Assembly (NCBI GenBank): GCA_013239625.1
Contig: MU053661.1
Span: forward strand, 124,001-154,630
DNA from: Lama guanicoe
Taxonomy: Eukaryota
Direction: 5' to 3'
Length of the DNA stretch: 30,630 nucleotides
Shown: one piece after another, positions 5,572 through 29,441 of the stretch
Numbering within the stretch: the stretch's first letter is position 1
Layout: the number at the start of each line of letters is the position of its first letter
The notes under the pieces: model-generated
Database searches by the model: none
What the model was told of the DNA's origin: nothing
What the model saw: only the letters and a program-made list of their open reading frames with translations
Program-made: the position numbers and the translations under genes

Positions 5572-5644
5572 GTGGAGAATGCCACTGAGGTTGGCACTGA
5601 TTGCCTGGAGAACGCTGAAACCCAGGGAAGTGGGCAGCACAGAC

Positions 5645-7670: not shown

Positions 7671-7748
7671 GCAATGTATGTAAATTCCTTTAAAGTTTTA
7701 CTTATTTTTAGCTTAAAGGGATTTAAATCCTCAAGTGGCTTCTGCCCC

Positions 7749-8232: not shown

Positions 8233-8734
8233 CTTCTACCTACCTAACAAGCTGGGCACTGGAACTGAGGGAAGCTCTCCCACACACAGGGGCCTACTGT
8301 GAGCCCTTGATTATTCCCCGAGGGTGGGGTGTGGATTACCCAGGGGGGATGTGGACTATGCACCAACACTCAGGCAGTCTGCTCCTTCTGGGGCTCAGAC
8401 ATTTTATCTCCGGCTCCCCGCCAGCCCAACATTTGGGACAGTGGAGCTAAGGCAGAGATCGTGCCTGCCTGTTTCCCAGCATGTAAAAGGGGAATATGTA
8501 CTCTTCCGAAGGTAGTTCTGTGCGACAACACCTGCGGGTGCTTGGTTCCCGGAGCAACAGGAAAGCCAGGTCCGCGTGGGGGCAAATGGTGTGATACCCG
8601 TAGGGGTTCTGCAGAGACCTTAGCTGGAGGGCTGTGCCAGGGACGTAAAATATGAGCTGTGGGCATTGAAGGGTTAGAGAAGGGTGCAGAGGCAGGACTG
8701 CAGCCTCCTTCGGGTTGCACCCAGAGGTAAAACG

Positions 8735-8880: not shown

Positions 8881-8899
8881 AGGACCCAGAGAGGATTGC

Positions 8900-9560
8900 T
8901 GGCCCTTCTGCACATGCGCAGTTGCTGCCAGCTGGACCGCGGGTTGGAAGTTCCATCTCCGAGCCGGGGATCGGCTCCAAAGGCTTCTCAGCTCTGTCGC
9001 CCGGTAGGCCTTTGGCTCCTGCCCCGGGCCGGGGCCTCTGGCTGTGGAAGTGCAAGGTGGGGGGATCTCGAGAAAGGGTTCAGGCGGCTGCGGGAGGGCG
9101 GTCCGCCTGTCACAGCCCCCCAGGGAGCCAGACAGAGTGTGTTCAGCTGAGTTGCTCGGGCCAGGCCCCTCTGCCCGCGCCACCTGCCCCGGCACCCCGG
9201 CCACAGCTGTCCAGGACCAGGTGTGACCCTGCCGCCTCTCACCCAGCCGGGCTGCCCTCAGTTCGCTGCTGGCGTCCCCTCCCCCTCTCCCGCCCGCGAG
9301 TCCTCTCCTCCCGGGCTTCCTCTCCTCGGCCGCCGGCCCGTCCCCGCCCCTGGGCGGGCTGTGTCCCGGGCAGGCGGGGTCTGCGGACCCGGACGGGGCG
9401 GGCGGCTGGGCTGGTGCTGGGCTCCGAGAGGGGCTGCAGCCCGCATCCCCCACCCCGCTCTCCCTGCCCCGCGACCCCCGGGGCTGCCTTCCTCCTCCTT
9501 TCCCGATCCCTGAGGTCCAGATCAGCGGCGTGGGCGCTGCTCTCCAGGCTGAAAGCCACC
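8900..9560 (+). promoter_or_regulatory. CpG-island promoter with NRF1-like, ETS-like and GC-box motifs
   Basis: GC- and CpG-rich block in an otherwise CpG-depleted region. TGCACATGCGCA at 8909-8920 (NRF1 consensus TGCGCATGCGCA, 1 mismatch), TGGAAGT at 8945-8951, CCCCGCCCC at 9342-9350, GGGGCGGG at 9395-9402. Direction inferred from candidate donors and the downstream exons. Confidence 0.8.
8915..9003 (+). other. Candidate non-coding first exon
   Basis: Follows the NRF1-like site and ends at CCG|GTAGGC (donor at 9004). Alternative donors: AAG|GTGGGG (9057) and CAG|GTGTGA (9221). No transcript evidence available. Confidence 0.35.
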
Positions 9561-10044
9561 GGCTGTAAAGCCCAGCTTCTGGTGGAGTCGGGAAAAGGGA
9601 GCGCCAGTGCTGAGGGAGCTTCTGTCTCCTCGCTCAGTATTTCTGCCACAGATAAGTACCTTGAACACTTTCTGGTGTTATGATGGTGGTGCTTGTTGAT
9701 GTCACGTGTTTTTTTAGTGAGAGGGATTACAGTAGTGAAAGCAAGGCTTGGTTCAGTTAAAAATGAGCTGAACGCATGAGGCTGTGATATCCTCCATCCT
9801 TCCCTCTCCCAGGGTGAAACGTGAGACCCTCTATCTTAAAAAGATAGTTACAGTCCCTAACTAGCCCAGCCCAGCTAGTGTGTGTTAACAGGAACAGAAC
9901 CACCAGAGGCGTTGGAGACCCAGGGACATTGCAGTCCTAAACAGCTCCTGGCAAAATCTGGTTTGTTTTGTTTTTTTGTTTGTTTGTTTTTCTTAAATTG
10001 TGGGACAGACTAGTAGTATAGAGGGAAAAATAATTGTCAAGAAA

Positions 10045-10190
10045 TATTTTTTCGTATAACAGCTTTATTGTGATATTGTTCACACACCATGAAGTCCACC
10101 CACTTGAATGTTACAATTCAGCAGCTTTTAGCATATTCACATTTGTGCAACCATTATTATTCCAGAACGTTTTCATCACATCAGAAAGAC
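10045..10190 (-). mobile_element. L1MB-type 3'-terminal fragment
   Basis: 'aacagctttattgtgatattgttcacacaccatgaagtccacccac...tacaattcagcagcttttagcatattcaca...ttccagaacgttttcatcac'. Confidence 0.75.
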
Positions 10191-10264
10191 CAGTGGAAAT
10201 GAATGACCAATCCACCCCTTTCCAGTGGTGTTTCTAAAGAATTTTCTCGCTGTTCCTGACCATA

Positions 10265-10390
10265 AATTAATTTGTTAGATTCCATGAAATATCTGGGAGG
10301 AATTCTAATCAGAATTGCAATGAATCTGCCTATCAAAGCAGGAAGAATTAATGTCTTTATGGCATAAACTTCTTCTACACATGAATATAT
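10265..10390 (-). mobile_element. L1 ORF2 remnant
   Basis: Minus-strand peptide IYSCVEEVYAIKTLILPALIGRFIAILIRIPPRYFMESNKLI resembles the L1 ORF2 motif [36 protein letters not shown].I. Confidence 0.75.
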
Positions 10391-10689
10391 CTGGGACCTC
10401 ATCATTTCATCTGTCCAGAGCCAGGTCTATGGGAAATCCTCATTGTGTTGCGTTTGTGAATGATGTGATTCAAAACAACATTAGATGCAACTGTAGTTTT
10501 CACAGAAGAGAAAAGTAACCTCATAGAAGCCAAGTGACTCTCTGTTGGTTAGAATGAGTGACAGCCCCGGCTGGAGTGATCGAGTGGACTTGGTGCTTGC
10601 AACCAGAGTTCTCCACCACCTACAGCTAAGGGGATTCCTGTGTTCTTTTACTTTTTTTATGGCGTTGTTTATATTTTTACTTATTATTT

Positions 10690-10953
10690 AAAATTATTTT
10701 TTATTGAAGTGTGGTCAATTTACCATGTTAGCTTCAGATGTACAGCAGAGATGCAGTTATAAGCATATGCATATGTATATACATGTTTTTAAGATTGTTT
10801 TTAGCACAACTCATTACAAGAAATTGAATATAGTACCCTGTGTTATATAGTAGGTCCTTGTCATTTATTTTATATTTATTAACGTGTATCTGTTAATCCT
10901 CCCTTTCCTGCCTGCTAACCACAGTTAGCTTTCTATGTCCATGAGTCTATTTC
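10690..10953 (-). mobile_element. Artiodactyl-type L1 3' end (5'-truncated)
   Basis: 'ttttttattgaagtgtggtcaatttaccatgtt...cattacaagaaattgaatatagtaccctgtgttatatagtaggtccttgt...ttctatgtccatgagtctatttct'. Confidence 0.8.
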
Positions 10954-12159
10954 TAGCAACACGGTTTTTGCTAGTAATATATGCTGGTTGGCTGCTTTCG
11001 GTTTCAGTAATTCCATCTTATGTGTGGGCGTTTTTCTTCTGGTGGGCCTGTGTGTGGTTTGCACACATGATAATAGAGATCTGTATCTGGGAGAACTCCA
11101 GACCTCGTGTAGTCCCTGGTACGGAGCGCCCACTGAACTGATGCTTGAACTGGGAAAAAAAAACATAGTAAATGTTGGAATTTCCACTATGGTTGAAACT
11201 TCCAGGTTTCTGTAACCTGTTTAGCCCACTTTAATGTTGGCTGCACCCATACTGGATAATTTGGTGGAACTTCATGGTATTGTGGTGTAGAGACAGGGCC
11301 TTGTATGCTTATTCTCTTCCCTTTTTCTAACACTCATTCTCCTGGGCCTTCCAGGTACTCCCCTAGAAGGGCCCAGGGCTGGCTTGGTGCTGCACTGAGG
11401 CAATATTTGTTAATAAGACGCTTTCCTCATCTCTTCTGAGCCTCCGTTTCCTTCTCTGCACAATGAGGGCTTAGACTAGATAAGTGCTTTTCAGTTTCTT
11501 TTAAAGCCATGTTTCCTTTGAGAAACAAAAAATGCAAATCTCTCCTCCCATCCCAACCCTTTAGATTTTGACACGTCCTCCAAGGAGTGACATAGCTCTT
11601 TGTGGTTAATTGATGTGATTGTGATTCCAGGTGGCACAGAAAAGACTCTTCAGAGATTTATTGCAGGGAGAGGGCAGGAAAGGGGCAGTATGTCACACTT
11701 TCTAGTGTGAGCACTGGAGCAAGGGCTTGGGTTTAACTACGGTGTCTAACGTGCCCTTTCTCTAATCTTGCACAATGTGATAAACCTCTCTCCCTAGTTT
11801 CTTAATGTGTCAAGTTGGGGTGATAATATTTTAAGGCTTTTGTGAAACATTATACTCATAAGCCATTTGTGTCTCGGTAGATACAAGACCTGCTAGAGAG
11901 TCAGGGATTTCTTTAAAAATATATATATATTGTCCACAGCACTCTGTGTGTATTTTGAAGTTCCTGGAGGGTGAGGGTTGAGTCTAAAGTCCATAGTGGG
12001 ACAGGTGACCCAGGGGTCTGTGTGCCCCAGATTGCCCCCTCCTCCCCAGTCCTCTTCCTCTCAGTCCAGGATGAAGTTCCCTAGCAGATTTACACAGAGG
12101 TCTTGTGGACATGGCTTTTCATTTTATTGTTTCACCAAGGAGGGTTGCCATCATGATTT

Positions 12160-12318
12160 CTGTGGTCAGATTTTGGTGATCTGAAGGCTATGCAATTGGG
12201 GATTTCTATTTAATAAAAAGAAAAAAATTACAAATAGAAAATTAGAACAAGGGTGGTGACAGGGGCTATAGAAAGTGGGGACCATTAGCTTTGTTAGCTT
12301 CAGGTGCAGTGGCCTCTG
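12160..12318 (+). mobile_element. hAT-Tip100 non-autonomous DNA transposon (ORSL-like)
   Basis: 'ctgaaggctatgcaattgggg...tttaataaaagaaaaaaattacaaatagaaaattag...agctttgttagcttcaggtgcagtggcctctg' resembles a recalled consensus. Family name uncertain. Confidence 0.5.
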
Positions 12319-12475
12319 GCCATGGGGACCCATCCTTGTGCTCTGAAGTTGGAGGGATAAGTGGGTTCAGTGGGAATGTTTACTGAGTGTATCTCATGGG
12401 CTGCAAATTGTCTTATTTGTACTGTGTGCTCCTTATCTGAGTCAGTGAACTCATTTAATCTCAATAGCCTCTTTA

Positions 12476-12595
12476 AAAATTTAGACTTTTTATTTTGAGA
12501 TATAATGTAGATTCCCATGTAGTTGTAAGAGATAATATGGAGAGGGCCTATGGACTCTTTGCCCAATTTTCTTTAATAGTTCCATCTTGCAAAGT
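12476..12595 (-). mobile_element. L1MC/L1MD 3'-terminal fragment
   Basis: 'gactttttattttgagatataatgtagattcccatgtagttgtaagagataata...catcttgcaaa'. Confidence 0.7.
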
Positions 12596-12807
12596 TGGGG
12601 TACTATTCATTCGTGACTCACTAACCCTTTTAGGTTTGTGTTATTGCCCTCATTTCTATTTATGAATAAACTGGTATTTAGAGAAGCTCACAGGCCTTCC
12701 CAGGTCCCCCACATGTTTAGTGCAGAGTCGGGTGAACGTGGGCTTGGGATTTCCAGGCAGTACCATTATGATTGTCTGTGGCAGGGAGCAGCATTCACTT
12801 TGCTTGT

Positions 12808-12870
12808 TTATTCATTCATTCAACAAGCATTTATTAAATAAACTCTGTGGGTCAGATGCTTTCTTAGGTT
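12808..12870 (-). mobile_element. L2 3' terminus
   Basis: 'ttattcattcattcaacaagcatttattaa' is the characteristic antisense L2 tail. Confidence 0.65.
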
Positions 12871-13086
12871 TATCTGCTTCTTCAGCAGTACTAAGAATCA
12901 GGAAATATTTATTTTTTTTAATCTGAGAAAATTAGTTCTGAGAGGTTATAAACCCCCCAAAGGAAGTATAGCTCATAAAGGAGCGATAGTAAACTTGAAC
13001 AGTCACCTCTTTTTATGCAGGTGGTACCCTAGGCATTTTAAATTTGCAAACTTCCGTAATCCAGATATATTCTTGTAAGGCAAGGA

Positions 13087-13133
13087 TTTTTTTTTAATTG
13101 AAGTATAGTCAAGTTTACAATGTTGTGTCAATT
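13087..13133 (-). mobile_element. Extremely 5'-truncated L1 3' tip
   Basis: 'tttttttttaattgaagtatagtcaagtttacaatgttgtgtcaatt' flanked by GCAAGG (13080-13085 and 13134-13139). Confidence 0.7.
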
Positions 13134-13140
13134 GCAAGGT

Positions 13141-13293
13141 GTTTTTTTTTGAATTTTGAATTGAAAAAATATTTTTGAGGGGGTTAATTAGGTTTACTTA
13201 TTTGTTTCATTTTTTTAAAATGAGGTACTGGGGATTGAGCCAAGGTCCTCGTACATGCTATGTACATGCTCTACCACTGAAGTTTACCCTCCT
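13141..13293 (-). mobile_element. Camelid Vic-1-type tRNA-derived SINE
   Basis: The minus strand reads AGGAGGGTAAACTTCAGTGGTAGAGCATGTAC...GGCTCAATCCCCAGTACCTC...AAACCTAATTAACCCCC (A/B boxes plus tail). TAAGGCAAG is duplicated at 13076-13084 and 13297-13305. Confidence 0.85.
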
Positions 13294-13722
13294 AACTAAG
13301 GCAAGTTTTCTTATCCATTATTCTGCACCTTAGGAGTTCAAATAAATTGGAGTGGAAATCCAGATGTTTTGATCCCACTGTGGTTCTTTGCATTATATCC
13401 TGCTGAGGGGTGGGGAAGCAGTTCCTTTATTCATTCTTTTATTCAGCTGTTTTGAGCACTGACTTTGCATCAGGGCCTGGCTAGTTGCTTGGAAACAGAA
13501 AACAAGAAATGACCCTTCTCTGCAGGGACAGGAAGCCTTGACCAAAAGCTGGGTAATGTGATCTGAGCTACAGTAGCCATGTGCAGAAGCTGAGGACAAA
13601 CTTACCCCCGATTTGCTTGGGCTTCCGTTGCCTTCTGGCTGGTACACCAGGTCGCCGCAACCCAGTGAGGCCCGCAGCCCGCAGCACAGTATGTACATTG
13701 GTCTACTCTCCCCTCTTGGCAG

Positions 13723-14295
13723 GGCCTGCAACATTAGCGTCCCTGACTATGTGCAGTGTGCTGAGGACCACCAGAATCTCCCCGTTGTGGTCCAACCCGT
13801 GGTAATCATCTTAGAGGAGAATTTCTTTTGCATCTATATTGGAATCTCCTTGGTGAGCCAGATCAGCCCATGCGGCTCCCAGTGGGCACTCTGTATCCAC
13901 TATAGGTATCACTATGGGCCCGAGAATGGATGGAGTGACTTCCAAACCCACCGCAATGTCGTGGGCCTTGTCACCATTACCGACTGCCTCTTGGCCAAGA
14001 CCTTCTAGAAGCTCCACATGCAGAGGAGCTGTATGGCACCACGTTCTACGACTCTCAGCTCTTTCTCTTTGTGCTGTATGGGGAGGTGGCCGAGCAGCCA
14101 CGCACTGATGTGGCCTTAAATCTAGGAGGACTGCAGGGTGGTGGAGAAGAGGATCGAGGACTTCACTGAGTCACTCTTGATCTTGCCCAAGTCCAAGTGG
14201 CTGGATGGGGCCCCAGAAAAGTCTGCGGAGAAGACCCCCCTCCTCTACACCCTGTTTGAAAAGGAGGACTTCGTGGGACTGGACACAGACAGCAG
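13723..14295 (+). pseudogene. TRAPPC9-like first coding exon, disabled
   Basis: Translates as (I)[44 protein letters not shown] / [25 protein letters not shown] / [26 protein letters not shown], matching TRAPPC9 MSVPDYMQCAEDHQ...[12 protein letters not shown]>ATT at 13733; TAG at 14006 and 14123; two frameshifts. Acceptor ctactctcccctcttggcAG (13721-22); donor-like GCAAGT at 14296. Confidence 0.95.
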
Positions 14296-14584
14296 GCAAG
14301 TCTACGTGGAGGCCCGGCCACCCTGGCTGTGTGAAGGGTTGCTTCCCTGCATCCAGAATTGGATCAGCAAGGAGGAGGGCTGTCTTGTAGCCAAGGCGGG
14401 AAGAAGGTGCAGCCCGCCGGTTTTCAGACGTTTAAAGTGAATCCGCCTTTGTTTCAGAGAGATCCTTTTAGGGTTAATATGGAGACTTACTGCCCCTTTT
14501 CAGCCAGGATACTTGGTGGGACCCCTGGAGTTGCTGTCCAAAAGAGTAGCTACAGCCACTGATGCTAGGAGCGCTGGTTAGGAG

Positions 14585-14835
14585 GCTGGCCTGAGCTGAG
14601 ATGTGCTGTAGTCAAATGCACATCAGACGCTGAGACTTGTCTAGTAAAAAGAATGTAAACTATATTGTTACTTTCTATATTGATTACATGTCAAAATGAT
14701 AGTATTTTACATACAGTAGAATAAGTAAGACCTGTTCTTAAAATCAGTTTCTAGTTTGTTTTGTTTTTAATTTTAAAATGTGGCAACTGGGAAGCTTTCT
14801 TTACATGGCTCTCATTTCATTCCTGTTGGGCAGCT
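14585..14835 (-). mobile_element. MER33 (hAT-Charlie) DNA transposon
   Basis: 'ctgagatgtgctgta...aaaaagaatgtaaa...tatattgattacatgtcaaaatgatagtatttt...aaaatgtggcaactggga...ttcctgttgggcagc'. Confidence 0.75.
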
Positions 14836-17110
14836 TGTCCTGGGACAGTCCCATCCCTTTGCCTATAGATGAGACTCTGAATCCCGAGACCAGAACGAGG
14901 TGCTGGTTGAGCTAGGGATGGAGCCGGTGTCTCCTGCCTCCCAGGCCCAGCACCTGTTCAGCTCAGGCTCTCTCTCCCTGCCCGACAGCCGCCATGCCAA
15001 GTTAGGACATCAGAAACACTGCAGGGGCTTCCTAATGAGCTCCTTACGCAGGGAAACGCATGTCACGGAGAATGGGACAGAGCAGGGAAAAATTCGTCCT
15101 CACTTTGTCACTGTGATTTGGTCAAAGGTCCCACTCTGCCTTGGAAGTGCAGACGAGCTCTTCTGGGCTGCCTAGAGCCCACCCGCTACTATGTTTCCCT
15201 GTGTATTTTTCGAGCTGTCCCTCGGGCAGAAGGGGGTGAGATGTCTTTGCCGAGAGGTGGTCCCCCTTTGCTGGGGAGAGTGAGGGAAGCCGTGACCCCC
15301 AGCCTACGGCCTCAGGCCTTGAGTCTGGAGAGCGCCCATGGTGGTCCCAAAGGTGACGGTCGGAGGACATGGCACGTGCTGCCAGACCCGCTGTGGAGGG
15401 GGTGCTCTGTGATTCTCTGTGATTCTAAGCTCAGATTCTACATTCTGGTTGTTGGTAAGTTGGAGGAGAAGATGCCAGAGAATTGATAAAAAGAAAGTCC
15501 ACACCAGTCCTATGAGTGAGAGGCACAGGGGATACGTGTCCCACCTGCGTGGGGTGCCTGGCGGGCTCTGGATGAATTTTCACTTCCTCCCCGGACATGC
15601 CTCTATGGCGTAAGGAAGGGAAGATTCATGTCGTGGCCATGATCTGTACTTGTCCTTGCAGGACCCTGTGATCTACAAGCCCGCACTACCCTTCCACTCC
15701 TTGTAGATGAGCTGGCAGGTTTAGTGGCCTGGGCAAAGCTGAGGGCACAGCTGCCAGCACCGGGCCACTCCCAGGCAGGCTCCGTTCACTTTACATGTCA
15801 CCTCCTGCTGAGGACCCTGGCGTTAGTCAAGATAGGTGCATCGGTGCAACGTAAGCAGGGACCACCTTCTGCCCCTGGACAGACTGGTGGGTGAGCAGTG
15901 GAAGCCTGGAGCCCTGCCCCAGCCCCCAGGCCAGTGCCTCCTCTTTTGTCATAGGAGGCACTGGTGACATTTTTGCTCAGCAACTGCTTGGCTCTGGGTC
16001 TGCAGACCCACCAGAGAATGCTAGCTTGTTTTTGAATTTTGAAGTCTGCCCTTGGGATTTGGCGGAGTAGCTGGATGGGTGCTTAGCCCACAGTGATTGA
16101 CACTGTCACCATTGCTTACCCAGAACCTCGTGTACCAGGCATGGCTCCTGGCATCAAAATACAGCAGCGTATTAAACCTCCCTCCTTGTGGGTCTCTCTG
16201 TTCTGGTACCATAAGGGCTCAGCCAGCATCTGAACGTCAGTGAGATAACGTGGCCAGTGAGCTCGGGTCAAGCACGTTCTCCTCCAGTCACTTTTACTCC
16301 ATTGTTGCTTTTACTATTCCACAGTCATTAATTTTAAAAACAATGCTTTGGAGCAGAAGCAGAGGCTAATTCTCCCCTGTTTCTCTTGGTGGGAGTGATT
16401 AAAATTGTCCAGATTGAATTGCGACCACATTTTGTAGCTCAAAAGCTGTCTACACGCATCTAGGTGAAGTTTTGGTTTGGGGCGCTGACCATGTTGGGGT
16501 CCCCCGGCATCGCCGCTCCCCTCAGGCCCCTGCCTTCCCTGGAGCAGGAGGTAAGTGTGGGTCTCACCTTCCCCGCATCCCTGTCCTCATCACACTCACG
16601 TAATTTCTTGTAAATGCTGTCAGTTATTTTTGTTCTCGTGTGTTTCTAATTTTCGCTGTTCCTCTTTTCCTTTTTCTATTTTCCTTTTTCCCTTATACCA
16701 CCCTGTGAGCACGTTGTTGGGTCTGAAAATGTGGGCTGTGCACACCCTGCATTGGAAATAGCCAGATCGCCCTCGGTGATGTCTCCAATGCTTTAAAAAG
16801 CAAAAACTTAACAGTTGCCTTGATTCATATATTATCCTAGTCATCTTTTTATTTTCTAGTTTTTTGGAATTTTTGCTCTGTTAGCCCATCACCCACTGGT
16901 CTTTGATACCTATTAAAGTCCTTGCTTTGATTAACCTGTTTGTTCCTCCTTATATTTGGTGGCATATGCACTCTTACTAATTTTGTTTATTTGTTTTGAA
17001 GAAGTGAGATGCGAATTGATTTAGGCGGCTGCTGAGGGATTTTTTTCATGGAGTATTTAAACTTGGAAAGTCAAAATCTGCAGCACCTTGCTTGATTCTG
17101 GCTTTTACAC

Positions 17111-17195
17111 AAACGTGCTCGGTACGCGGTTCCTGGCTGTCGCTGTGTGACGTGCGTGACGGCGTTTCCTGGCCGGCGGTCACTGGTGAGGAAGT
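17111..17195. promoter_or_regulatory. Small intronic CpG cluster (candidate enhancer or alternative promoter)
   Basis: 11 CpGs in 17111-17180, with TGACGTG, ACGTG, GCGTG, TTCC/GGAAGT motifs and a CTG|GTGAGG donor-like site. Confidence 0.45.
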
Positions 17196-17949
17196 GGCAG
17201 TCTTGGGGGTGAGCAGCTGCAGGGGATGCTGTTGGAGGAAGCAGTCTCCGGTTTTTTGTTTTTTGGGTTTTTTTTGCATTTACCTTCCCAGTGACATTTA
17301 CTTTCGTTTGCATTAATTGAGGGGCAGTTGCGGGTCTAAAATCCATGCCACTCTTTTTTTCCCTTTATGAGGCTGATTTTTCTGAGTATCAGGACAACAT
17401 GGCCTTCTCCTTAGTAGCTGGCTCACCTGGATCTGGTGGACACAGGGACTGCTAAAGGGGACCGTAGCTTCCTCTCTGCTTCAGCCAGTGGGCATTCAGA
17501 GCCGGGTCTGTGGTTTGCCTCAGCAGCCGTGCAGGCCTCCCTACACCGGCCTTTAATTTTACCCCTTTTTGGCAGTAAATACCTGACTCTGTGTCTGTTG
17601 CAGCTGATTCCACCACTGACGGCCGTGTCGTTATTTTGCGGTAGTGAGTCTCCAACACCCCTATCAGCCGTGAAGGGACCTTGCATTCTCACCCCCTTGC
17701 ACTGTTCCCCCTGGTAAGGGTGAAGCCCCCAGAACAGACTGCCCGTATTTTCTGTGTATCCCTGGATACATGCCTTACCCTTAGGAGGCCAGAAAAAGAA
17801 CTATCTCCACCCCAGTCAGTATCAAAGTTCTTAAGGGTCTGGGTTATATTAACTCTATGTTGCAGGGAGACTATTCCAGAATTGTTCAACAACCTTTGTC
17901 CAGGATGGCTCCTCTCCCAGTGGGGAGAAGGGCAGCGGAGGGAAACTAG

Positions 17950-18157
17950 CCAGGCCCCGTGTCAGGTACCAGTCGGCCGCCCTACTTGCCTGTTGCATTC
18001 ACATCCATGCCTCCCAGGTGGGCGGTGGCAGCCCCCTTTTGCAGATTGGGAAGCCTTCTCAGAGGGGTTAAGGAATTGGTCCGTTTACCGGCTAGTAAAT
18101 GCTGTAGCAGGATTCAAGCAGGGCCTTGTCAGATTTCAAGGTCATGTTCTCTCTACT
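17950..18157 (-). mobile_element. MIR SINE
   Basis: 'cccccttttgcagattgggaagccttctcagaggggttaagg...gctagtaaatgctgtagcaggattcaagc...tcagatttcaaggtcatgttctctctact'. Confidence 0.65.
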
Positions 18158-19149
18158 GTTTCCAGTACTTCCCTGTTACACCTGGAATGGTGAAGTGGAG
18201 CCTTTCAGAAAAAGTACGATTTAAGTGCCTCAGGACTGTTTCACAAAGCTCACCGTTCGTTGATGGTTTGGAAGCACCACAGTGCTTTACGCCTTACAGA
18301 TGTAAGGTTTTACTCCTTTGACGATGACGTAGTTGCAAATGACGTACAGGTGCAAAACCACACTTAGCAGCTTCTGAAGGGAAACACTGCAGTTCTCCCT
18401 TGATCCGCTTTCTTCTGCGGGATGTAACGTACTGCAGCGTAAGCCTGAGCTATCCGTACGGAGTGAGGGTTTGATATCCAAAGTTAGCATAAAACAGTCA
18501 GATGGAGAAAATCGAAGATGACAATATATTTTGGGGTTTAATTAGACAAGATATACTATCTGTCAATGGCCCATAAAGCGAATGAAATTGAGTACAGAAC
18601 ATTGCATTTCTTACTTTCTACAGAGAGCTGTCTTCCAACGTAAGGTTGTCTGCTTTGGAACTTCAGCTCAGCCACTAGGGCACCTAATTGTGTTGGTTGC
18701 ACTTACACAGTGTATGTAATCTGGGCTTCCTTAGCCCCAAACACTCCAGTGCAGAATCATAGGCTGTAGCCATCACTTAGTTATACAAATACTTCTAAAA
18801 CTATATGATACCAAAAAAATTAATAAAAATAAAAAGAGAGCGGGAGATTGCCTTTATCAAAGTTCCCTTGGATTTTAACTGCAAACTGATGTTAAGCAGC
18901 TCTGGTTCCCTTTGGATATGAATATATACATTTCTTTGCATTTAACTTGGATTTTAGACATGAATACCAAGCTCTTGTTTTCCATGAGCCACAAAAATCA
19001 TAGCCAAATGACACATGTATGAAATATTTTATTCTTTTTTTCTGAGACAGAATCCTTGGATTTGGGACTTGGGCTGTGATTTTGCTTTTTGCTCTTCCCA
19101 CCCCTCTTGTCACCACACTCCTTTTTCCCACGTGGACTCCAAGAGTTCA

Positions 19150-19972
19150 TGGTCTCAAAGGAGCAGGTGGACAAATACCAGTTGGTAGCCAAGCAGTGCT
19201 GCTGTAGAGGGAGCCCAGCCAAGAGCTAAAGGACATCATCAGAGAGGACTTCCTGGAAGAAATTGGCTCTACATTCAGTTCTGAGGACAGAGTAAGAGTC
19301 AGCCAGGAGAAGGAATCAAGAGGGTGACTCCGGTGGCAGGAGCAGCCCGGGTAGAAGCCTGGAGGCTTGTGGGGTGGGGACTCGGGGAGAGTGCCCTGTG
19401 TGGTACAGGGTGGTGGGTGCCCCTGCTGGGAAGGACACTGGAGAGGGCCTAGGGGTGGAGGGCTTTGGTGGAGCTTGGTTTTTACTAGAACTGACACAGA
19501 GGGGGCAGTGAAGGGTGTCAGCAGGAAGTGACACTCAGGAGAGCAGCTCTGCCTGTCCTTTTGAGCCCCACCCCTTCATTCATTTATTCATAACACACGC
19601 AATCCTGAGTGTCTAGGTGAGAGGGGTGGACCCACAGTAGTAAGCAAAATGTACTTACTTCTTAAGCGCTTAGCAGTGTCAGAAGTTGACTTAGTTTAGA
19701 ATGTTCTAGGAACACAGCAGGGCACCTAACCCAAAGTGCGGAGGTTGGAGGGAAGGAAGGCTTCCTTGACAAACATTCAAAATGAGCCTGGAGGCAAGTG
19801 GGAATTAGCAGCAGGTCACGAGGCACCTGAGGTCACTGGGGACCTGGGTACTGAGGTGAGGCTGGACAAGCAGGTTCGGGAGTGGGGCTAGAAATCTACC
19901 AGGGAGCCTCTGAAGGGTTTGAAGTGGGGTTGATGTAATCAAGTTTGTGCTTTCGGAAGGCTGCCGTGGCTC
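19150..19972 (-). mobile_element. L2 fragments
   Basis: 'gaggacttcctggaagaa', 'ttcattcatttattca', 'gggagcctctgaagggttttgaagtgggg...aatcaagtttgtgcttt'. Confidence 0.55.
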
Positions 19973-20010
19973 TGTGTGTGCGTGTGTGGTGTGTGTGTGT
20001 GTGTGTGTGT
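19973..20010. repeat. Interrupted (TG)n microsatellite
   Basis: Read directly from the sequence. Confidence 0.95.
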
Positions 20011-21050
20011 ATCGGGGAAGAGGGGGACGGTGCCACCAACTGGGAGGGTCATTAGAAGACCATTCACGGGCTCAGAGGCCACCAGTGGGAGAGGGGCGGC
20101 GAGGCTGCTTGGGGACGGCAGGGGCAGTGTAGATGCCGGATTTCCTTATGGGGAGTGCTTGTTAGTGGGGTCGCTCTAGCGACACCTTGTGGCTGGAAGA
20201 AAACAGATGGAGGCCACCAGGTGGAATTTCCTCTTCTCTCCTTCCCTGCCTTGTGTGATGATCCTAGGTCAGCCAACATATGGAACAGAAGACCTAAGTT
20301 CCAGAGTAGCCCAGGACTTTGCTGAGCTCATTCGAGTGAGATCTGTTATGATTTAGGCTTGTGTTGAAATCTGCATGTCCACTTAGCTAGAATGCCCCGT
20401 CTCTTGGATTTCAATAGGGGTATTAATTCTTGATAAAGATTGCTTTCTTGGTGAGAGGAAATTTAATACAACTGCTGTCTTTCTCAAAAAAAATCTTATC
20501 TTGTAAGAAATTTAATATTCAAAAGAATAGGAATATTTAAAAATGATAAACTAAGGCTTTCGTGTAGTTTCTTTGGTTTTCTGAGTTGATGTGGAGGTAG
20601 AGCCTTTGCATTACTTAATAGCACATCTTTGTCAGTATTTAAAGAGCTGTTAGTGAGCACCCCAGGCCCCACTTTTCAAAGCATCATTAAAGCTTGCTCT
20701 GAAATAGTGAAGTCATAAAGGTCTTGTTTGCAGAAGCCAAATATTTGGTTTATAATCTGCAGCATAGCTCCCTTTATAAAATAATAATAGGTTCAAAATT
20801 AAGAAAGTGGAAGACAATTGATTTTTTTAAAAGCTGAAACTAAACTTTCTTGTGCTAATGTTGCAACTGGAAATTTCGAAAAGAAAAATCCTACTGTAAT
20901 ATCATCTACGTGGAATACATATATGTCTGTCACGTTTGAAAAGTAACTGCACAGTGGTTTTTGAAGTCAGGACCATTCCAGCTGAGATACTGGCAGTGAT
21001 GTTTGCTGGTTTTCAATGGAAGAGCCTAAATTTGCTTCCTTAGCTTTATT

Positions 21051-21095
21051 CTTTTCTTTTCTTTTCTTTTCTTTTCTTTTCTTTTCTTTTCTTTT
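21051..21095. repeat. (CTTTT)9 microsatellite followed by (CT)n, T and G runs
   Basis: Read directly from the sequence. Confidence 0.97.
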
Positions 21096-21225
21096 CTCTC
21101 TCTCTTTTTTTTGGGGGGGGGTAGTGCGAGGGTTGAGTAGTGCTTTGCCAGCATGATTTTGGGGCAATTTGGGGGCAGATGTCGTGCACCAGCAGTGAGA
21201 TATTTCCATGCATTTTAATTTCCGG

Positions 21226-21346
21226 ACATCACCAGGGCACATGTGGGTTTTGTGCCTGCAGGCTGGGATGCTGCAGGACTCACTGGTCCATCACCGCTAT
21301 GTCCTGGAGCTGCTCCAATCAGTGAATGACTTTCTGTGGCTTGGAG
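21226..21346 (+). pseudogene. TRAPPC9-like second coding exon remnant
   Basis: Frame from 21250 reads [32 protein letters not shown], versus TRAPPC9 [32 protein letters not shown]. Donor GAG|GTAATG at 21347 is intact. The ancestral acceptor appears mutated (ttttaatttccGG) and the 5' part has deletions. Not in the ORF track because it is under 60 aa. Confidence 0.92.
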
Positions 21347-21689
21347 GTAATGTGTCTGATGGAGATGATCAGATGTGTAACTAAAGTACTGTTACTTGAA
21401 ATAAGAGAAAAGCTATCAAAAATGGCTCTAAAATACAGGATGAGGGAGGAGAATTGGCTGAGCTATTTGCAGTGGGGAATATTCTCAGGTGACTCTCTCA
21501 CTGTGTCTCCTGTCACTCTCCCCCACAGCCCTGCACGGCAGTCATACTGAAGCAACCACGCAGTTTCTCAGAAACGTGCTGAATTTCCTTGTGCCTCTGA
21601 TTGTTCACTTTTTTTTTAAAGTACATCTTGTCTTTTGCTTAAGTGCCATCCCTGCTAGCCACCTCTTACACTCATTCTTCTGGACCTCG

Positions 21690-22230
21690 CCCATATGTAG
21701 CTGCTGAATGGATGAACAAAATGATGTATCTCCATTTAGTGGAATATTATTCAGACATAAGAGTGAATAAAAAAGAAAAAATAAATAAAGGGGAATTTGA
21801 AAAAAACCACCTGCTCTGGGAAGTCCACCCTGACTGCTCAACCCGGCCTTTTCTCTTTGAAACCCCATCCGTTATACTCCTCTCTACTCTTTTTGATAGT
21901 ATTTACCAACTTCTAATAAAGTTTAACATTTTCAAAAAAAAGAGACATGCTGATACGACTTCAACGTGGATAAGCCTTGATAACAGCATGTTAACTGAAA
22001 GGAAGCAGACACAAACGGCCACATATTGTTGATTTCAGTGATCTGAAATGCCCAGAATAGGCTCATGCAGAGGCAGAGAGCAGATGATGGTTGCAAGGGG
22101 CTGGGTGGAGGGGGTTGGGGAGTGACTGCCAGTGACAGGGGGATTCTTTTCGGGTGATGAAGTGTTCTGGAAATAGATGGTTGTGAGGGCTGCACAACCG
22201 TGAGTGTGCAGAAGACTGCTGAGCGCTGTG
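21690..22230 (+). mobile_element. L1MB-type 3' region with an internal ~170 bp insert
   Basis: 'gaatggatgaacaaaatg...gtggaatattattcag', then 'cgtggataagccttga...tgaaaggaagcagacacaaacggccacatattgt...gtgatgaagtgttctggaa...gctgcacaacc'. Confidence 0.8.
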
Positions 22231-22829
22231 TCTGGGAGGTCCTGCGGTTGGGGGCGGCTTATATTGTTCTCACCCTGCAATGTGAAGAGTCATCTTGTGC
22301 TGTGGCCGTTCTACTCCTGTGAGTGGTGAGACTCAGAGACTTTGCAGAGTCATGTTTCTTTTTCCCCCTTGCTGAGTGTAGGCAAAAATGGTTTAAGCCT
22401 GAGAAAGTGCTCCATCTGCAGAAATGTCTTTCAGTTTTGCCTGGTGTAAAATTCTTGAGAGCTTTTTAATCGTTTAGGACAGTCTGTTGGGGAAACAGCC
22501 CGTGAAGCCTGGGTGAGACCTGGAAGAGCCGCGCTTCCCTCCCAGACACGGGTGGGGATTTCACCCCCGTTCAGGCAGTGAAGGGCTCAGAAACGTGAGC
22601 GGAGGTGACAGTCGTGAATATTTACGTGTATTCGCTGCTTCATCTTGGATATTAATTTCTGGCTGAGTCATTTTGTGGCGGCAGCCTCATCCTACGTCAG
22701 GAATTTATAGTATCTGCTCTTTGAGGTGAAGACCTGACAGACTTGATTATTTAACAGTCTGCCTTGAATTGATATCTCAGATTCTTTTGTCATTAGTAAA
22801 GCAGCAAAAATACAGACGTCCTTTAATGC

Positions 22830-22960
22830 TGATGTGACCTGGAGCAGGTTTAGTTTCTGTGTCTCAGTGGCCTTATCTGCGGGTGGGGAAGATGATAACA
22901 GTGCTTCCCTCAGAGGGTCTGGTGAGGGGAGAGTGAGAAGCACAAATGGAAGACTTTCAC
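22830..22960 (+). mobile_element. MIR SINE
   Basis: 'tgtgacctggagcagg...tctgtgtctcagtggccttatctgc...gatgataacagtgcttccctcagaggg...gtgagg'. Confidence 0.6.
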
Positions 22961-23304
22961 GAGATGCTCATGAATGACCGAATTTAGTGCTCTCAGCCTG
23001 GTGAGGCCTCAGGGGCAGAGATGACAGAACAGAGCAGTCCTAGCCGGAGCTCGATCCTCGTTGGTAGCTTTTATGATCAGTATAACCACTGTGGGTTATC
23101 AGGTAGTTTTAAGACTTGGTAATATGAATTCATGAATAATGTTATAAGACTAGAAAACTCACATCCGGTTTACATAGTTCTCAAGATTTCCTGTGATGAA
23201 TGAATATTTTTTCCCCATCTTAAATCTGGGTGGAGTCTCTAAAAAAATTCTGTAGTCCTCCATCTTTTTGCTTTAATTCTCCATTTTTTTAAAAACAAAG
23301 CTTA

Positions 23305-23385
23305 TAAATGGAGTTAATGGGGACTGAACTGAGGGCCTCATGCATGCTGAGACCATACTCTCTCAACTGAGGTATACTCTCCCCG
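23305..23385 (-). mobile_element. Diverged Vic-1-type SINE
   Basis: 'atggagttaatggggactgaactgagggcctcatgcatgctgagaccatactctctcaactgaggtatactctccc' is homologous to 13220-13293. Confidence 0.75.
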
Positions 23386-23629
23386 TAATTTTTTTTAAAC
23401 TTTACTTTCTTAGTATTCAGAGTTTAGAGGCCTCTAATTCTTTTTCTGGAGACTTGGCCATGAACCTGTAAATCAATAATTAGTGGACAAAATTTGGCTT
23501 ATTAAAAAAATCAATAGAACTTTCTTCAATTCATTCAAAGGGAAATGCTCATTGAGTTAAAATGTTTCTCCTTTATTGTGATTTCTAATTTTTAGTCTAG
23601 CTTAACTTATTAAAAGTAATCCTCATCAT

Positions 23630-23830
23630 CATAATAACCAAGCTTGCTGTGAGTGGACACCTACCAAAGGCTAAAATGTTTCTCTCCAAAGCAGGTGTTT
23701 GACGGTAGGTATCAGTGTCTCCTATTTTGCAGCTGAGGGATTGAGAGGTGGGCAGCTTGTCCCAAATCACAGGCAGCTGGCGGTGGCTAGCTCCGTGCGG
23801 GAACCCAGGCTGCACAGGATGCATTCTCAA
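23630..23830 (-). mobile_element. MIR SINE
   Basis: 'cctattttgcagctgagggattgagagg...cttgtcccaaatcacaggcagctgg...gaacccaggct'. Confidence 0.55.
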
Positions 23831-25814
23831 ATGCTCCTCTGATCAGCCCCCCGTTGAGTGGTTTCCCGAACACCTGTGAGTCCATAAATGACCTATTTTG
23901 GCGATCTCAGCCTGATGAGGCCTTCAAAGGAGAGACACCAGTGAGAATGTGAGACAGAGTGGCATAAATTAAAATTGTACATTTTCACTAATGTTGCATT
24001 CTCAGGTAATGGCATAAATAGATTATGTTTTCTTTATTTTAGTGCTCTGTAAGCACTAAAAACAAAACATTAAAAAAGATTATAGTGCAAAATAGGAGTG
24101 GGCTTTGAAAGTCCAACCATTGCTAATGATGTTGCTTGTTTTTCTCTAGTTGTGCTTATTGACAGAATAATTTACAATGACTGAATTTGTTTTATGTAGT
24201 CTTATTATGGAGGAAAAGTTTGTCAGTGAATATTGAAAGTAAAATCTTCACTCTTTTCTTTCCTGATGATAAATATGTAAGTTGTTTTCATGGCTTAAGT
24301 ATATTTCCTCATTTATGAAATTTGAGTGATGCCGTTTACCGTGTCTGACTGTGAGAGGTAGATGCCTTGTATACAAAGCATCCAAGAGCTGTTTAGTAAA
24401 AATGTGCTGTCAAAATGACAGATAGTTTAGAAGGATCAACTGTGAATACAGTTGGTATTAGAGGTATTGGCAATAGAGGGTGGCTTGTTTCTGATGCATA
24501 TTCAATATGGATATATATGAATATGGCTTAAAGTAACAAGGATTCAGGTTTTGTTTGTGTGTGTGCGTGCAGTATGAAGTTTGAATGAAATCTATGTCAT
24601 TCTATTGAGACAGGGACTAGTTAAATTGACTTAAGCAGACGACGTTGAAGACTATTTACACAGAATGTGTATTGTTACAACTCAGTATTCATGTTGCCTT
24701 GTAACTATCCACTCAGACATTTAAATTCGTAGGAATCTGAACAGAAGCATTAAGTTTAGAAAAATCCACACTGATCATTTTCAGGGAATAAGCTCTCTTT
24801 TGTGATTAAAGAAAATTTTGATTTATTTTTCTGCACTCAATAGGTTTTAAAATATCAAAACATTGATTTGACATGACAGCTTTTTTAATAGAAAAAAGCT
24901 CATGCTGTTTTAATATGTAAATAAATGTTTTTGTATTTCAATACACTTGTATGATTTCCTGGCTCTTTGAGAAGTATTTTGCAAGATACTTAGATTACCT
25001 CCTGTTGGAAAAATACAGACGTGACTTCTATTAATATAGGCCTAGTACAGGTCTGTTGGTTTTTGCTACAGTGCAAGACATGAGGCCTAGGAGAGATTTG
25101 CTGCCGATTGCCAGGAGGACAGATCCCAGATCTCAGTCTCCCCTCCTGTAAAATGAAGTGGCTGGACTGGATTCTTTCCTCTTCAAAGATGAGTTTCCAT
25201 GAGTCTGTGTCTTTTGTATATATTCAGGAGTATTAGCAATATCAGATTAAATACTGAATACCCTTCCCTTTCCCGAAGCGAAATGCAGTATAAGTATGTA
25301 TATAAGTATGTAGTATGTATACTACATAAGCTTTTAGTTATCTGATTCTTGTATCTGATCCACAGGCAATTTTTGTGTTGCTTCTTTCCCGGCAACCTGG
25401 AAGGTCTTTTTAGCCATAGTTGGCGCTGTTGCACCTTCTTACAGCCTTAATAGTCCTGTTTGTAAAAGAAGGCTTAAACAACGTTATTTTGTTTTGATTC
25501 CTTTGCTTAGTGCTTCAGGATAGCACAATGTCCATTATGTCTGTCTACCTGGAAATATTATTCTGCTTATAGTTTAGTTTTATTCTATCATCTCGCTGTG
25601 AACATTTCAGACTTCCTGTGCAAACAATGGCAACATCGGACTTTTCTTCCAGTGTTAGAAACCATTGAGCCGGAATTTTATAAAACAGCTAGAAGCGGCC
25701 TCTGGAACACCTTAAAGCTGAAAAGTGTACTGAGTTCCCTAAGTATTGACCCCACCACTGTGTGTCAATTGGTGGTAGGAGATTTGGTACATATACGAAG
25801 GGGTGTAGTGTTTT

Positions 25815-25965
25815 GACTTGGGTTTGCGTGTACGCGCTGCCACTGAGCCACGTGATCCTGAGTCAGTTCTTTCTGAGTTTTTCCCTCGTCTATGAGATGG
25901 GGACACTCATTTCTGCTTTGTAGAATTGTGAGAATTAGAAATTATGTAAAGTGTTTAGCACAGTG
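25815..25965 (+). mobile_element. MIR SINE
   Basis: 'gacttgggtttg...gctgccactgagccacgtgatcctgagtcagtt...ttccctcgtctatgagatgggg...tgtaaagtgtttagcacagtg'. Confidence 0.65.
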
Positions 25966-26849
25966 GGTATGTCAAGAGGGCTCATAAACTTAACTGCTGT
26001 TTGGTGTGAAGCCATCATTTGATAGTCTTTGGCAATTACTGATAAACAGGAAAATAAGAAAAGCTAGTTTTATGATGAAAGATATTTGAGGAGCTTCCAT
26101 AGTTCCTATACCCATAATTTAGCATCAGCAGAGTCAGGACCGTTACACAGTCGCCCTGAACCAATGTTAAGCCATAGAATTTTTTGTTACTTCATATATG
26201 TTGGGGCTTAAGGGGACCCAATACTTATACACATGTTGTCTCCAGGAGCCAACTGAGAGATAACAAAGAAGAACAGGGAGGCGATAAATGTCTCCTTTAT
26301 TACTGATGAAGCCACGTTCTCCATGAAATTCAGGGCTGCGGGAGAGTGGGTGTCATGACACTATGTCCCAGAATTAGAGACTCACGCAGTCCCAGGTAAC
26401 TCTTTGTCACAGTGAGCCTTCCCTTGAGAGGATCTGATCCATAATGCACAGGACTGTCTTGCCATGGAGCTGAGCATCATGGGTGCTTCCTAAGGGTGGC
26501 CAACACTGGAGGGAAAGGAAAGGTTTCATATGCCCTGCTTGTCTCCCCGGACTCACACCTCAATCTGTTAGTGTGAGGAGGGCTAGCAGTGGGCCAGGGA
26601 TCAGTGGTGTGAAGGGAGAAGCAGTCTCCCCTGTACTAGAGTGGGGAGGAAGCATCCCCTCCCTCAGTTTAAACAGGTGGTGGCTTGGAACAGAAGAGTA
26701 CTCCCCAAGAGTTTATAAGAGGGGAAATAAGGATTTCCTTTGGGACTCAGACTAGCCATGAAACACAGAAGATGATTAGTTGGGAGACTTATAAATAACT
26801 TTCTTATTAAATTGACATTTGTTGGGCACCAAAAATGTGCTACATTCTT

Positions 26850-27040
26850 TTCTGAGAGTTTTACAGAAATGAATCCTTCAATCTTCACAACAAGTGAGTA
26901 AGAAAGATTTGATTGTTATCCCAGGTTTACAGTGTGGAAATTGAGGCACACATAGGGTAAGTAAGTTGGCCAAGGTCACAGAGCTAATAAGTGGCAGAGC
27001 TGGGATTTAAACCCTGGCTGTCTGGTTTCCAGGCTCCCAG
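26850..27040 (-). mobile_element. MIR SINE
   Basis: 'aatcttcacaacaa...tttacagtgtggaaattgaggcaca...aagtaagttggccaaggtcacagagctaataagtggcagagctgggatttaaaccc'. Confidence 0.8.
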
Positions 27041-28430
27041 GGATGGGCTTTGGGTGTTTAGAGGTATCTGCATCCCTGGATTGCTGTACCACTGTGCATC
27101 AGTTAGCCCAGAAAGGACAGGGAAAGGAGAGTTATACAGGTGCTCACAGTTTTGTCTCAGCCACTGTCCACGGAGAGTGCACCGTGATTGGCGTTAATTG
27201 TCTTCTGGGCAGCAGATCTGTTCTTATAACAGAAATTTAGTCCATTGAGTTAATCTAGAAACCTTTCCTGCTCCGCTTCTGTCCACGCTTGCCATGTGAC
27301 TGACTACCTGAGGTTGGGCCGTTGAGGAGAAACTACTCATGGTTGAACTCTGATATTTCAGTCTGGTTTGTAGTTTCACATCTCCTGTTACATTAATAAA
27401 TTAAATTTCTGGTTTTCTTGCATCAGTGTGTCATAATTTTGGTTAATGTGAAACCAGTCCATGGGAGCCCAGGGGTGCTGACGGTATAATTTCTGAGCGC
27501 GTTGTGGCATTTCTACCCGTGCAGACCTGGCTGGAGGATGTCCACCTTCCTCACTGATTTCCCCCAACAGCAGGATCCTCTCCCACCCCCCGAATGTGAG
27601 GATGGGAGCTCCCTGAGTAGGCAAGCCAGAGGCCGAGTCCACCAATTAGAAAATGATGAAGTACCTGGAAGTGGGTTTAATAGAAGAAAAGGGCTTCCTG
27701 GTAATCTGATGGGCTGTTCGAGTCCGTTTGGTGAAAAGTTGTCCAGTGTCTGTGGTTTAGCTGCTTCTTTGCTGTTTAAAAGTCTGTATTACATGAAGGG
27801 ATTTTAAAAAGCAGAAAGGTGTGATTTCAGGTGGTACATCCGCACCGGTGAGAAGTGATGGATGACCGCCTGTGTGAGGCATAGACAGAGTCTTACAAAC
27901 TTCATAAAACAGCCTTAAAAGCTCTGCCATCTGAGTGCACTTCATATGGGGTCCAGTTCATCACTGGTCGCATTGTGAGGGCAAGTAGCTGATGATGGCA
28001 GAAACGACACGGGGGCATCAAAAAGGTCTCAGTCATGTTCCGTGTTTAGAGGATGCGGCACACTAATATATTTGAGCTGGTTTTTCACTGAAAAGTTTTT
28101 AGTGTTTTCTGGGACTCCCCAGTGCCCCAAGGTTCCATGCAGCTGGGTGTCCCCTCAGTGCAGCTCTGTCAGCGCTTGCTCTGGGCTGAAGTGGTGTCAC
28201 TGGGAGCAGGACGGTCAGCGTCCCCGGCTCCTCCGAGCTCCGTCTCATCCGCAGAGCCAGGTTTCTCATCCGTGTCTACTTAGTAGGGTTGCTGAGAATC
28301 ACACGTGATGGTGGTCAGGTGTGATTTGTGGTTGTCTCTGTGATTGGCGTATAGTCAATATTTGATAGAAACACTTGTTTTTTATTATAATTGTGGCTCC
28401 TAGATTGCAGTGGTTTTTAGCCTGCATTTA

Positions 28431-28563
28431 TTTTTTTATAAATTTATTCTTATTTTTAAATAAGCACTTGTATTTATTTATTTTCATGAAGGTACTGGGG
28501 ATTGAAGCCAGGAACATGTACATGCTCGACAGGTGCTCTACAACAGAGTAAAACCCACCCTCC
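28431..28563 (-). mobile_element. Vic-1-type SINE with target-site duplication
   Basis: 'aggtactggggattgaagccagga...tacatgctcgacaggtgctctacaacagagt...ccctcc'; flanks GCCTGCATTTA (28420-28430) and GTCTGCACTTA (28566-28576). Confidence 0.8.
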
Positions 28564-29414
28564 TTGTCTGCACTTAAAAATAAATATTTCAATACACAAA
28601 ATAGTTCTTAAACACCATCATGGGACCCATTTTCTGCATAGACAATTGAATACATATTCTATTTCAATAAGAATAAATGTCGTAGGGACATACCTTTCTG
28701 AATCTGTTTACGTGTTGAAAAACGGTCATAGCTAGTGAAAAATACAAGTCTTGGATCCACTACTTCTTAGGGTCTGCTTTGCCATCATGGGAAATTACAT
28801 TCTACTGAGAAGGCTAATTGGGTCTCATTGATATTTGGATGATTTAGCAATGTTCAAGGCTTTCAAAAGCTGACAGTTTTGTATTTTAAACTAACTACAA
28901 AGTTATCTTCTAGAAGTTGGAAGTCCTCAGCTTGTGAAGTGCCCAGTAATTCAGTGTGTATATGTCTGTGAACTTGTGTGCGTGTGATTTCAGGATTGTA
29001 GAAATAAGTTCCATATAGCCTTCTGATACCTTTCTCCTCCATTTCAAGGTGTAGGTATATATTTAGACAAGTAAATTGATACTCTTTTGTCATTTGGCAT
29101 ATTGGTGGAAATAAGAGGTTCTCATACTTGTTTCAGAAAGGTTGGGGAGCATGAGCTTAGAAAATGGGAGGAGATAGAGGCAGGGAGGTTCTTTACACTT
29201 TGTGCAGGATGAGAAACAGTACCTTTTCTCTTTTCTTCTAAAGCAAACTGGCACTGAATTGTAACATACTAATACTCAGAATTGCTTTTCTGATCAGAGA
29301 CAAGTGCCTCAGATTTTTCAAGGCAACATGAATGATGAAATGTGTTTTAGCAGTTATCTTTAAAAGTAGTTTTATTTTTCAAGTATAAGTCTATAGACTG
29401 TTCTTTTTTTCCAG

Positions 29415-29441
29415 CTGTACAAGAATTTCTCATTGATCCAG
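29415..29441 (+). pseudogene. TRAPPC9-like 27-nt microexon with intact splice sites
   Basis: ttctttttttccAG|CTGTACAAGAATTTCTCATTGATCCAG|GTACGT. Phase 1-1 reading (A)VQEFLIDP(G) versus TRAPPC9 (G)AQEVLIDP(G), the alternatively spliced 9-aa segment. Confidence 0.8.

What the first reader, a model, noticed from the sequence alone, without database searches (positions are those of the whole stretch)
8900..29441. Hidden >15 kb intron-containing duplicate of the TRAPPC9 5' half under its own CpG-island promoter
Seen: three separate TRAPPC9-like segments in correct order and strand. Each ends where a splice donor sits, and they are separated by ~6.9 kb and ~8.1 kb. Known: TRAPPC9 (NIBP, the TRAPPII Trs120 subunit) is generally treated as single-copy; the peptide matches are from recall. 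Inference: this is a DNA-level duplication, not a retrocopy. The many substitutions and indels suggest it is old. Only part of the first exon shows in the ORF track, so automated annotation would likely miss the multi-exon structure.
Basis: partly seen in the sequence, partly recalled or inferred. Interest (0 to 1): 0.8.

Follow-up and report, generated by a model that had tools for sequence, protein, structure and literature searches.

The report
Camelid multicopy TRAPPC9 pseudogene unit
This is a broken, intron-bearing copy of the front of the TRAPPC9 gene, one of dozens scattered through camel and alpaca genomes, and such copies likely mislead gene annotation and trait mapping in these animals.

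Summary
TRAPPC9 coding exon 2 (13723-14295), most of exon 3 (21234-21346) and the 27-nt micro-exon (29415-29441) lie in order, 6.9 and 8.1 kb apart, so this is a DNA-level copy, not a retrocopy.

It is not a lone hidden duplicate. Of 54 short database relatives, 53 are named camelid gene models and none is named from another species. They lie on at least 12 large alpaca contigs. The window carries 13 of 15 family-derived residues and nests in a mixed camel-alpaca clade.

This copy is dead as TRAPPC9: start ATT, three stops, two frameshifts, exon-3 acceptor GG, exon 4 not found. The CpG island is shared with other copies and is likely the parent's promoter, copied along. Expression of this copy is untested.

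The family appears in print only as a table row (PMC10568864), and this scan found it before on other DNA (e1-7859012, e1-7859014, e1-9897444). Two dromedary GWAS name 'TRAPPC9' on chromosome 14, likely at such a copy. Verdict: an ordinary member of an under-described amplified pseudogene family.

The parts
8588..8672 (+). Likely relic of the upstream TRAPPC9 exon that gives the long human and chimpanzee isoform its N-terminal extension; ends at a GT
   Evidence: Best of 141 sites in the window for both extensions (33-34 against 25-29); 0 of 100 local nulls, but one other site scored 32.5 against 32.7 in a coarser tiling; 7 of the 10 codons before the GT match
8900..9600 (.). CpG island, shared with other camelid copies; likely the co-copied TRAPPC9 promoter
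   Evidence: GC 0.72, CpG o/e 0.59, 53 CpG; 17 of 113 camelid models match 8374-9057
8914..9056 (+). Predicted first exon with ATG at 8914 and GT donors after 9004 and 9056
   Evidence: 5 of 110 camelid models join this peptide straight to exon 2: 3 at the first donor, 2 at the second (sequences). Sheep and goat 5' extensions align here (0 of 100 local nulls) but rank only 3rd and 2nd in the whole window
13723..14295 (+). TRAPPC9 first coding exon copy: AG acceptor, start codon changed to ATT, two in-frame deletions, two frameshifts, stops at 14006, 14117 and 14123, GC donor
14296..16230 (+). Intron-2 DNA shared with other camelid copies, whose gene models read into it
   Evidence: matches up to 14508 and at 15050-15172, 15658-15906 (15 models) and 16123-16230
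21234..21346 (+). Exon 3 remnant: first 10 codons not alignable, GG at the expected acceptor, one frameshift, GT donor
21347..29414 (+). Merged intron in which exon 4 should lie but was not found
   Evidence: best frameshift-aware score 36 against 29 on the minus strand, while exon 3 scores 143; 1 of 40 nulls reached the best profile score; no consistent site for 5 orthologs
29415..29441 (+). 27-nt alternative micro-exon copy with intact AG and GT, 6 of 9 residues identical

Best explanation
The window holds one broken copy of the TRAPPC9 5' part that belongs to a family of dozens of camelid copies, likely spread by repeated segmental duplication and likely decaying without selection. Steps: (1) inferred: in a camelid ancestor a DNA block with the promoter and the exons up to about residue 378 was duplicated once. 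(2) Shown by shared changes: that copy gained lesions (loss of residue E67, then a 3-4 codon deletion and a frameshift) before it multiplied. (3) Shown by the tree, with few columns: amplification began before camels and South American camelids split, and later bursts were genus-specific. (4) Shown in the sequence: this copy then lost its start codon and gained stops. (5) Inferred: the copied CpG island may still start spliced RNA. The longest predicted product is 142 residues, and its stop lies 287 nt before the exon-2 donor, which would send further-spliced RNA to nonsense-mediated decay (50-nt rule, recalled). It cannot make a TRAPPII subunit.
For: Taxonomic spread: 30 of 46 hits and 24 of 24 are short models; 53 of these 54 are named camelid, and the unnamed one clusters with dromedary records. 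Dispersion: 12 alpaca contigs over 20 Mb in one accession series and 5 Bactrian ones. Descent: the window carries 13 of 15 family-majority derived states, including the E67 gap found in 61 of 61 family rows; mean identity is 78% to the family and 69% to orthologs. Tree: a 62-row camelid clade (98/95) apart from 5 orthologs (100/97); neither genus is one clade in any of 200 bootstrap trees. Decay: 37 of 139 columns that are at least 98% invariant among 231 orthologs are changed; arginines changed 8 of 13 against 48 of 172 other residues (p 0.023), as CpG decay would give; pig differs from 8 other orthologs at only 5-14 of 195 residues. Exons 3 and 4 and the micro-exon appear in 0 of 113 camelid models, exon 6 in 31 and exon 7 in 4, which fits a dead exon-3 acceptor.
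Against: No paralog DNA was available, so there is no dN/dS, no breakpoint and no true copy count. Invariant columns changed less often than variable ones (27% against 41%, p 0.067), which leaves room for some constraint. In 27 of 110 models a second frameshift restores the frame, so they read through exon 2. Exon 1 joins exon 2 in frame here. I found no full-length camelid TRAPPC9 among the records listed (best 120 of 986 hits, at most 15 members shown per cluster), so the intact parent in camelids rests on recall. Database models are predictions, biased to open frames, and several are isoforms of one locus.
Confidence: 0.85

Rival explanations
1. The block is a camelid 'core duplicon': a transcribed, selected gene family like primate NPIP/morpheus or GOLGA8 (names recalled), whose promoter makes new spliced RNAs or short proteins wherever it lands and whose activity helps the block spread.
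For: Promoter and exon 2 recur across copies. 27 of 110 models have compensating frameshifts; 19 join exon 6 back to exon 2 and 10 join exon 2 to exon 2, as tandem units or circular RNA would. One Bactrian locus has 14 listed isoform models. A 15-row alpaca-only clade shows a recent burst.
Against: This copy has lost the family's read-through frame (three stops). Mean identity between copies is 80% against 95% between orthologs separated far longer. Invariant residues are freely changed.
Confidence: 0.12
2. It is a single old duplicate, or the real TRAPPC9 locus damaged by assembly errors.
For: No database protein matches this copy closely (best 87% over 89 columns), and the best DNA runs hold only 27% of its sampled words.
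Against: The same deletions and frameshift occur in models from four camelid species, which assembly errors cannot give. No model carries sequence beyond residue 378 (0 of 113).
Confidence: 0.02

Closest known systems
TRAPPC9 (NIBP, TRAPPII Trs120 subunit; Pfam PF08626)
   Same: Exon order, splice positions, micro-exon and likely the promoter; 69% identity over exon 2.
   Different: Only the 5' part is present; start codon, frame, exon-3 acceptor and exon 4 are lost; many copies instead of one.
[quoted passage not shown]
   Same: Same family: shared derived residues, gaps and flanking DNA.
   Different: The paper (section 9 read) gives a count only and groups the family with melanin-related genes; it does not describe structure, age or pseudogene state. 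This copy is more decayed than many annotated ones.
Pseudogene-rich repetitive blocks of alpaca chromosomes 11, 17 and 36 (NEK10-like, FMN2-like, ABHD17A-like; PMC13751797)
   Same: Fragmented multi-copy gene pieces attributed to segmental duplication and decay (sections 14 and 15 part 1 read).
   Different: Those blocks are local and reported absent from camel assemblies; the TRAPPC9 family is in both camels and alpaca and on many contigs. The paper does not mention TRAPPC9 in its main text or the one supplement held.
Primate core duplicons (NPIP/morpheus, GOLGA8, TBC1D3, LRRC37; recalled)
   Same: Lineage-specific, dispersed, intron-bearing partial gene copies with a promoter.
   Different: No kept reading frame in this copy and no shown selection or expression.

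Membership tests
Unprocessed (duplicated) pseudogene | Parent exons in order, separated by introns at parent positions | tested here: met
Unprocessed (duplicated) pseudogene | Disabling lesions | tested here: met
   ATT start, three stops, frameshifts, GG acceptor
Unprocessed (duplicated) pseudogene | Intronic homology to an intact parent locus in the same genome | not testable with these tools
   no genome held; no full-length camelid TRAPPC9 among listed records
Camelid TRAPPC9-like amplified family | Shared derived residues and gaps | tested here: met
   13 of 15; inside the 62-row clade
Camelid TRAPPC9-like amplified family | Shared non-coding flanks | tested here: met
   model peptides map from 5579 to 16230, seen only through translated models
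Functional TRAPPC9 paralog | Open frame through the TRAPPC9 domains | tested here: not met
   longest predicted product 142 aa, 94 of them TRAPPC9-derived
Processed pseudogene (retrocopy) | Exons joined without introns | tested here: not met
   gaps of 4666, 6938 and 8068 nt
Core duplicon gene family | Dispersed lineage-specific copies | tested here: met
Core duplicon gene family | Transcription of the copy | not tested
   no reads were laid on the window; RNA rows hold 9-12% of words
Core duplicon gene family | Selection on the reading frame | tested here: inconclusive
   protein-level proxy only, p 0.067; no paralog DNA for dN/dS
Core duplicon gene family | Sits at the centre of mosaic duplication blocks | not testable with these tools
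   no genome held; no other gene fragment among 118 of 131 frames scanned by Pfam

The most novel reading that the evidence does not exclude
Camelids have their own core duplicon: the TRAPPC9 promoter and first exons seeded dispersed duplications before camels and llamas split, still drive spliced transcripts at new sites, and some copies keep a selected short protein, which would make this a non-primate counterpart of NPIP/morpheus.
Probability: 0.12. Interest if true: 0.72.

Novelty: new member of a known kind. Interest (0 to 1): 0.33.

Why it matters
For this copy alone, little: it is a dead gene piece. The family matters in two ways. First, a housekeeping gene front was amplified across many chromosomes in both camelid tribes, and I found it in print only as a table row; it is a handle on how camelid repeat-rich regions grew. 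Second, it is a trap. Two dromedary GWAS list 'TRAPPC9' (PMC8027435) or 'TRAPPC9, POFUT2' (PMC10357240) at chromosome 14, 31.1-31.4 Mb. Human chromosome 21 homology is on camelid chromosome 1 (PMC7288448), and POFUT2 on human 21 and TRAPPC9 on human 8 are recalled. So these candidates are likely copies, and their SNPs may be differences between paralogs (inference, not tested).

Tried and rejected
Retrocopy: rejected, introns are present.

Assembly error at the real locus: rejected by lesions shared across four species.

Exon 4 elsewhere in the window, including an eye-catching minus-strand motif near 17500: not among the top six sites for any of 5 orthologs on either strand.

Fusion to another gene inside the window: Pfam on 118 of the 131 frames of 65 aa or more gave only the exon-3 hit and two weak unrelated hits below cut-off. 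The first four frames scanned gave no TRAPPC9 hit. Short exons of another gene could be missed.

Rfam: 0 matches. PDB by sequence: 0 matches. Scan look-ups near this place and in relatives were empty.

Own errors, redone: the micro-exon null used the wrong phase (redone); the arginine count had a frame slip, and its model set left out 3 of 113 models (redone); the script stopped before the exon-6 test (done: not in the window).

Tree: segments aligning over fewer than 75 residues were dropped, and 105 segments were collapsed to 69 distinct rows.

Full report
Observation. The window is mammalian DNA and no genome is held for it. Full-length TRAPPC9 proteins hit it at 13733-14296 and 21238-21345, and weakly at 29411-29443. 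A frameshift-aware alignment gives 129 of 187 identical residues for exon 2 and 29 of 37 for the 3' part of exon 3. The micro-exon at 29415-29441 has AG and GT ends, is the best of 146 same-sized sites and was not matched in 500 resampled windows. Ortholog isoforms define the micro-exon and the exon 2/3 joint; the exon 3/4 joint rests on homology ending at a GT. Exon numbers are recalled from the human gene.

State of the copy. The start codon reads ATT. Exon 2 lacks one codon at residue 67 and four near residue 91, has a frameshift near 14024 and another near 14120, and has stops at 14006, 14117 and 14123. The exon-2 donor is GC in an otherwise strong consensus; the exon-3 acceptor position reads GG after a pyrimidine tract, and the first exon-3 codons do not align. 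Exon 4 was not found by three methods, and exon 6 and later exons are not in the window. Joining the predicted exon 1 to exon 2 gives a 142-residue frame ending at 14006. The two frames of this copy that I looked up are not in the protein collection.

It is one of many. The exon-2 peptide finds 30 short proteins among 46 hits and 24 among 24. All 53 named ones come from dromedary, Bactrian camel, wild camel or alpaca; the other 16 hits are full-length TRAPPC9 from bats, a bird and one unnamed source. The search depends on shared words, so a much more decayed copy in another mammal could be missed. Cluster look-ups brought the set to 113 models. Within one accession series they lie on 12 alpaca contigs over 20 Mb and 5 Bactrian ones; some large contigs may be unplaced scaffolds, and many models are isoforms of one locus, so this is not a copy count.

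Descent. Fifteen columns separate the family majority from all five ortholog rows, and the window carries 13 of them. An early dromedary branch (P0065) carries 8, including the residue-67 gap but not the later deletion, which points to one founding duplication with stepwise lesions. In the tree the window sits in a 62-row camelid clade (98/95), next to an alpaca model (95/85) that ends at the same place as the window's first stop. Camel and alpaca rows interleave, and a 15-row alpaca clade shows a later burst. The tree has only 89 columns and many forks are open. The models cover exon 2 (113), exon 6 (31) and exon 7 (4) but never exons 3, 4, the micro-exon or anything later, so the unit likely spans the promoter to exon 7 and transcripts likely skip the damaged middle.

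The island. 8900-9600 has GC 0.72 and CpG o/e 0.59. It is family property: 17 of 113 models match 8374-9057 and 5 join it to exon 2. That it is the parent's promoter is likely but not proven. The N-terminal extension of the long human and chimpanzee isoforms aligns best at 8588-8677 and the match ends at a GT, but one other site scored almost as high in one tiling, and the sheep and goat matches at 8914-9044 are not the best in the window.

Selection. Pig differs from 8 other orthologs at 5-14 of 195 residues, while this copy has changed 37 of 139 near-invariant columns and shows an excess of arginine changes. Against pure neutrality, invariant columns changed somewhat less often than variable ones (p 0.067) and 27 of 110 models have compensating frameshifts; annotated models are biased to open frames. 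No dN/dS could be computed, and expression was not tested.

Literature. Searches: TRAPPC9+camel+duplication (2 irrelevant), any two of TRAPPC9 and five camelid terms (none of the 40 listed holds TRAPPC9), VicPac4 (1 irrelevant), TRAPPC9+camel (17), TRAPPC9+alpaca (0), camelid segmental duplications (8), TRAPPC9+pseudogene+partial duplication (1 plant paper), 'subunit 9-like' (1). What I saw: PMC10568864, passages and section 9 (family counted at 0, 4, 8 copies); PMC13751797, passages, section 14, part 1 of 2 of section 15 and a search of its one held supplement (similar pseudogene blocks, no TRAPPC9); PMC8027435 and PMC10357240, passages (GWAS candidates on chromosome 14); PMC7288448 and PMC6598621, passages (synteny); PMC6618069 and PMC13603154, passages with no TRAPP mention. 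The VicPac4 assembly paper was not found in the library, and it or unseen supplements of the other papers may describe the family.

Earlier notes of this scan report the same family on two other pieces of this genome and in another genome, with more than a hundred to several hundred copies and a TRAPPC9-POFUT2 block. I reached the multi-copy reading before looking, confirmed family membership and the dead exon-3 acceptor here, and could not check their copy numbers. The POFUT2 link prompted my reading of the GWAS rows.

Verdict. The feature is real and is an unprocessed pseudogene, one member of a camelid-wide amplified family. The copy is ordinary; the family is under-described and likely confounds annotation and association studies. 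Interest 0.33.

Noticed in passing
window 6577-7098 (+) and 7745-8229 (-): Two copies of a roughly 500-bp repeat in opposite orientation, 650 nt apart, just upstream of the promoter; LTR-like by TG..CA ends on the left copy. Two alpaca models match these stretches, which may be generic repeat similarity.
   Followed up: partly
window 5579-5674: One alpaca model (P0015) begins with a peptide matching here at 75%, so the duplicated unit may start at least 3 kb upstream of the island; the 5' breakpoint was not found.
   Followed up: partly
window 14293-14301: The exon-2 donor is GC in an otherwise near-perfect consensus; several family models read through this donor into the intron. Whether the parent intron is GC-AG is unknown.
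   Followed up: partly
proteins P0018, P0019, P0021-P0023, P0012: 19 models join exon 6 back to exon 2 and 10 join exon 2 to exon 2, pointing to head-to-tail units or circular RNA in other copies.
   Followed up: no
PMC8027435 and PMC10357240, dromedary chromosome 14, 31.1-31.4 Mb: GWAS candidates named TRAPPC9 and POFUT2 at one place, likely a duplicon copy rather than the real genes.
   Followed up: partly
window 13206-13280, 23295-23369, 28473-28547: Three copies of a short interspersed repeat, SINE-like by recall.
   Followed up: no
window 8700-18600: The best DNA runs hold only 27% of the sampled words; fragmented contigs in a repeat family or a different camelid species could each explain it.
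   Followed up: no
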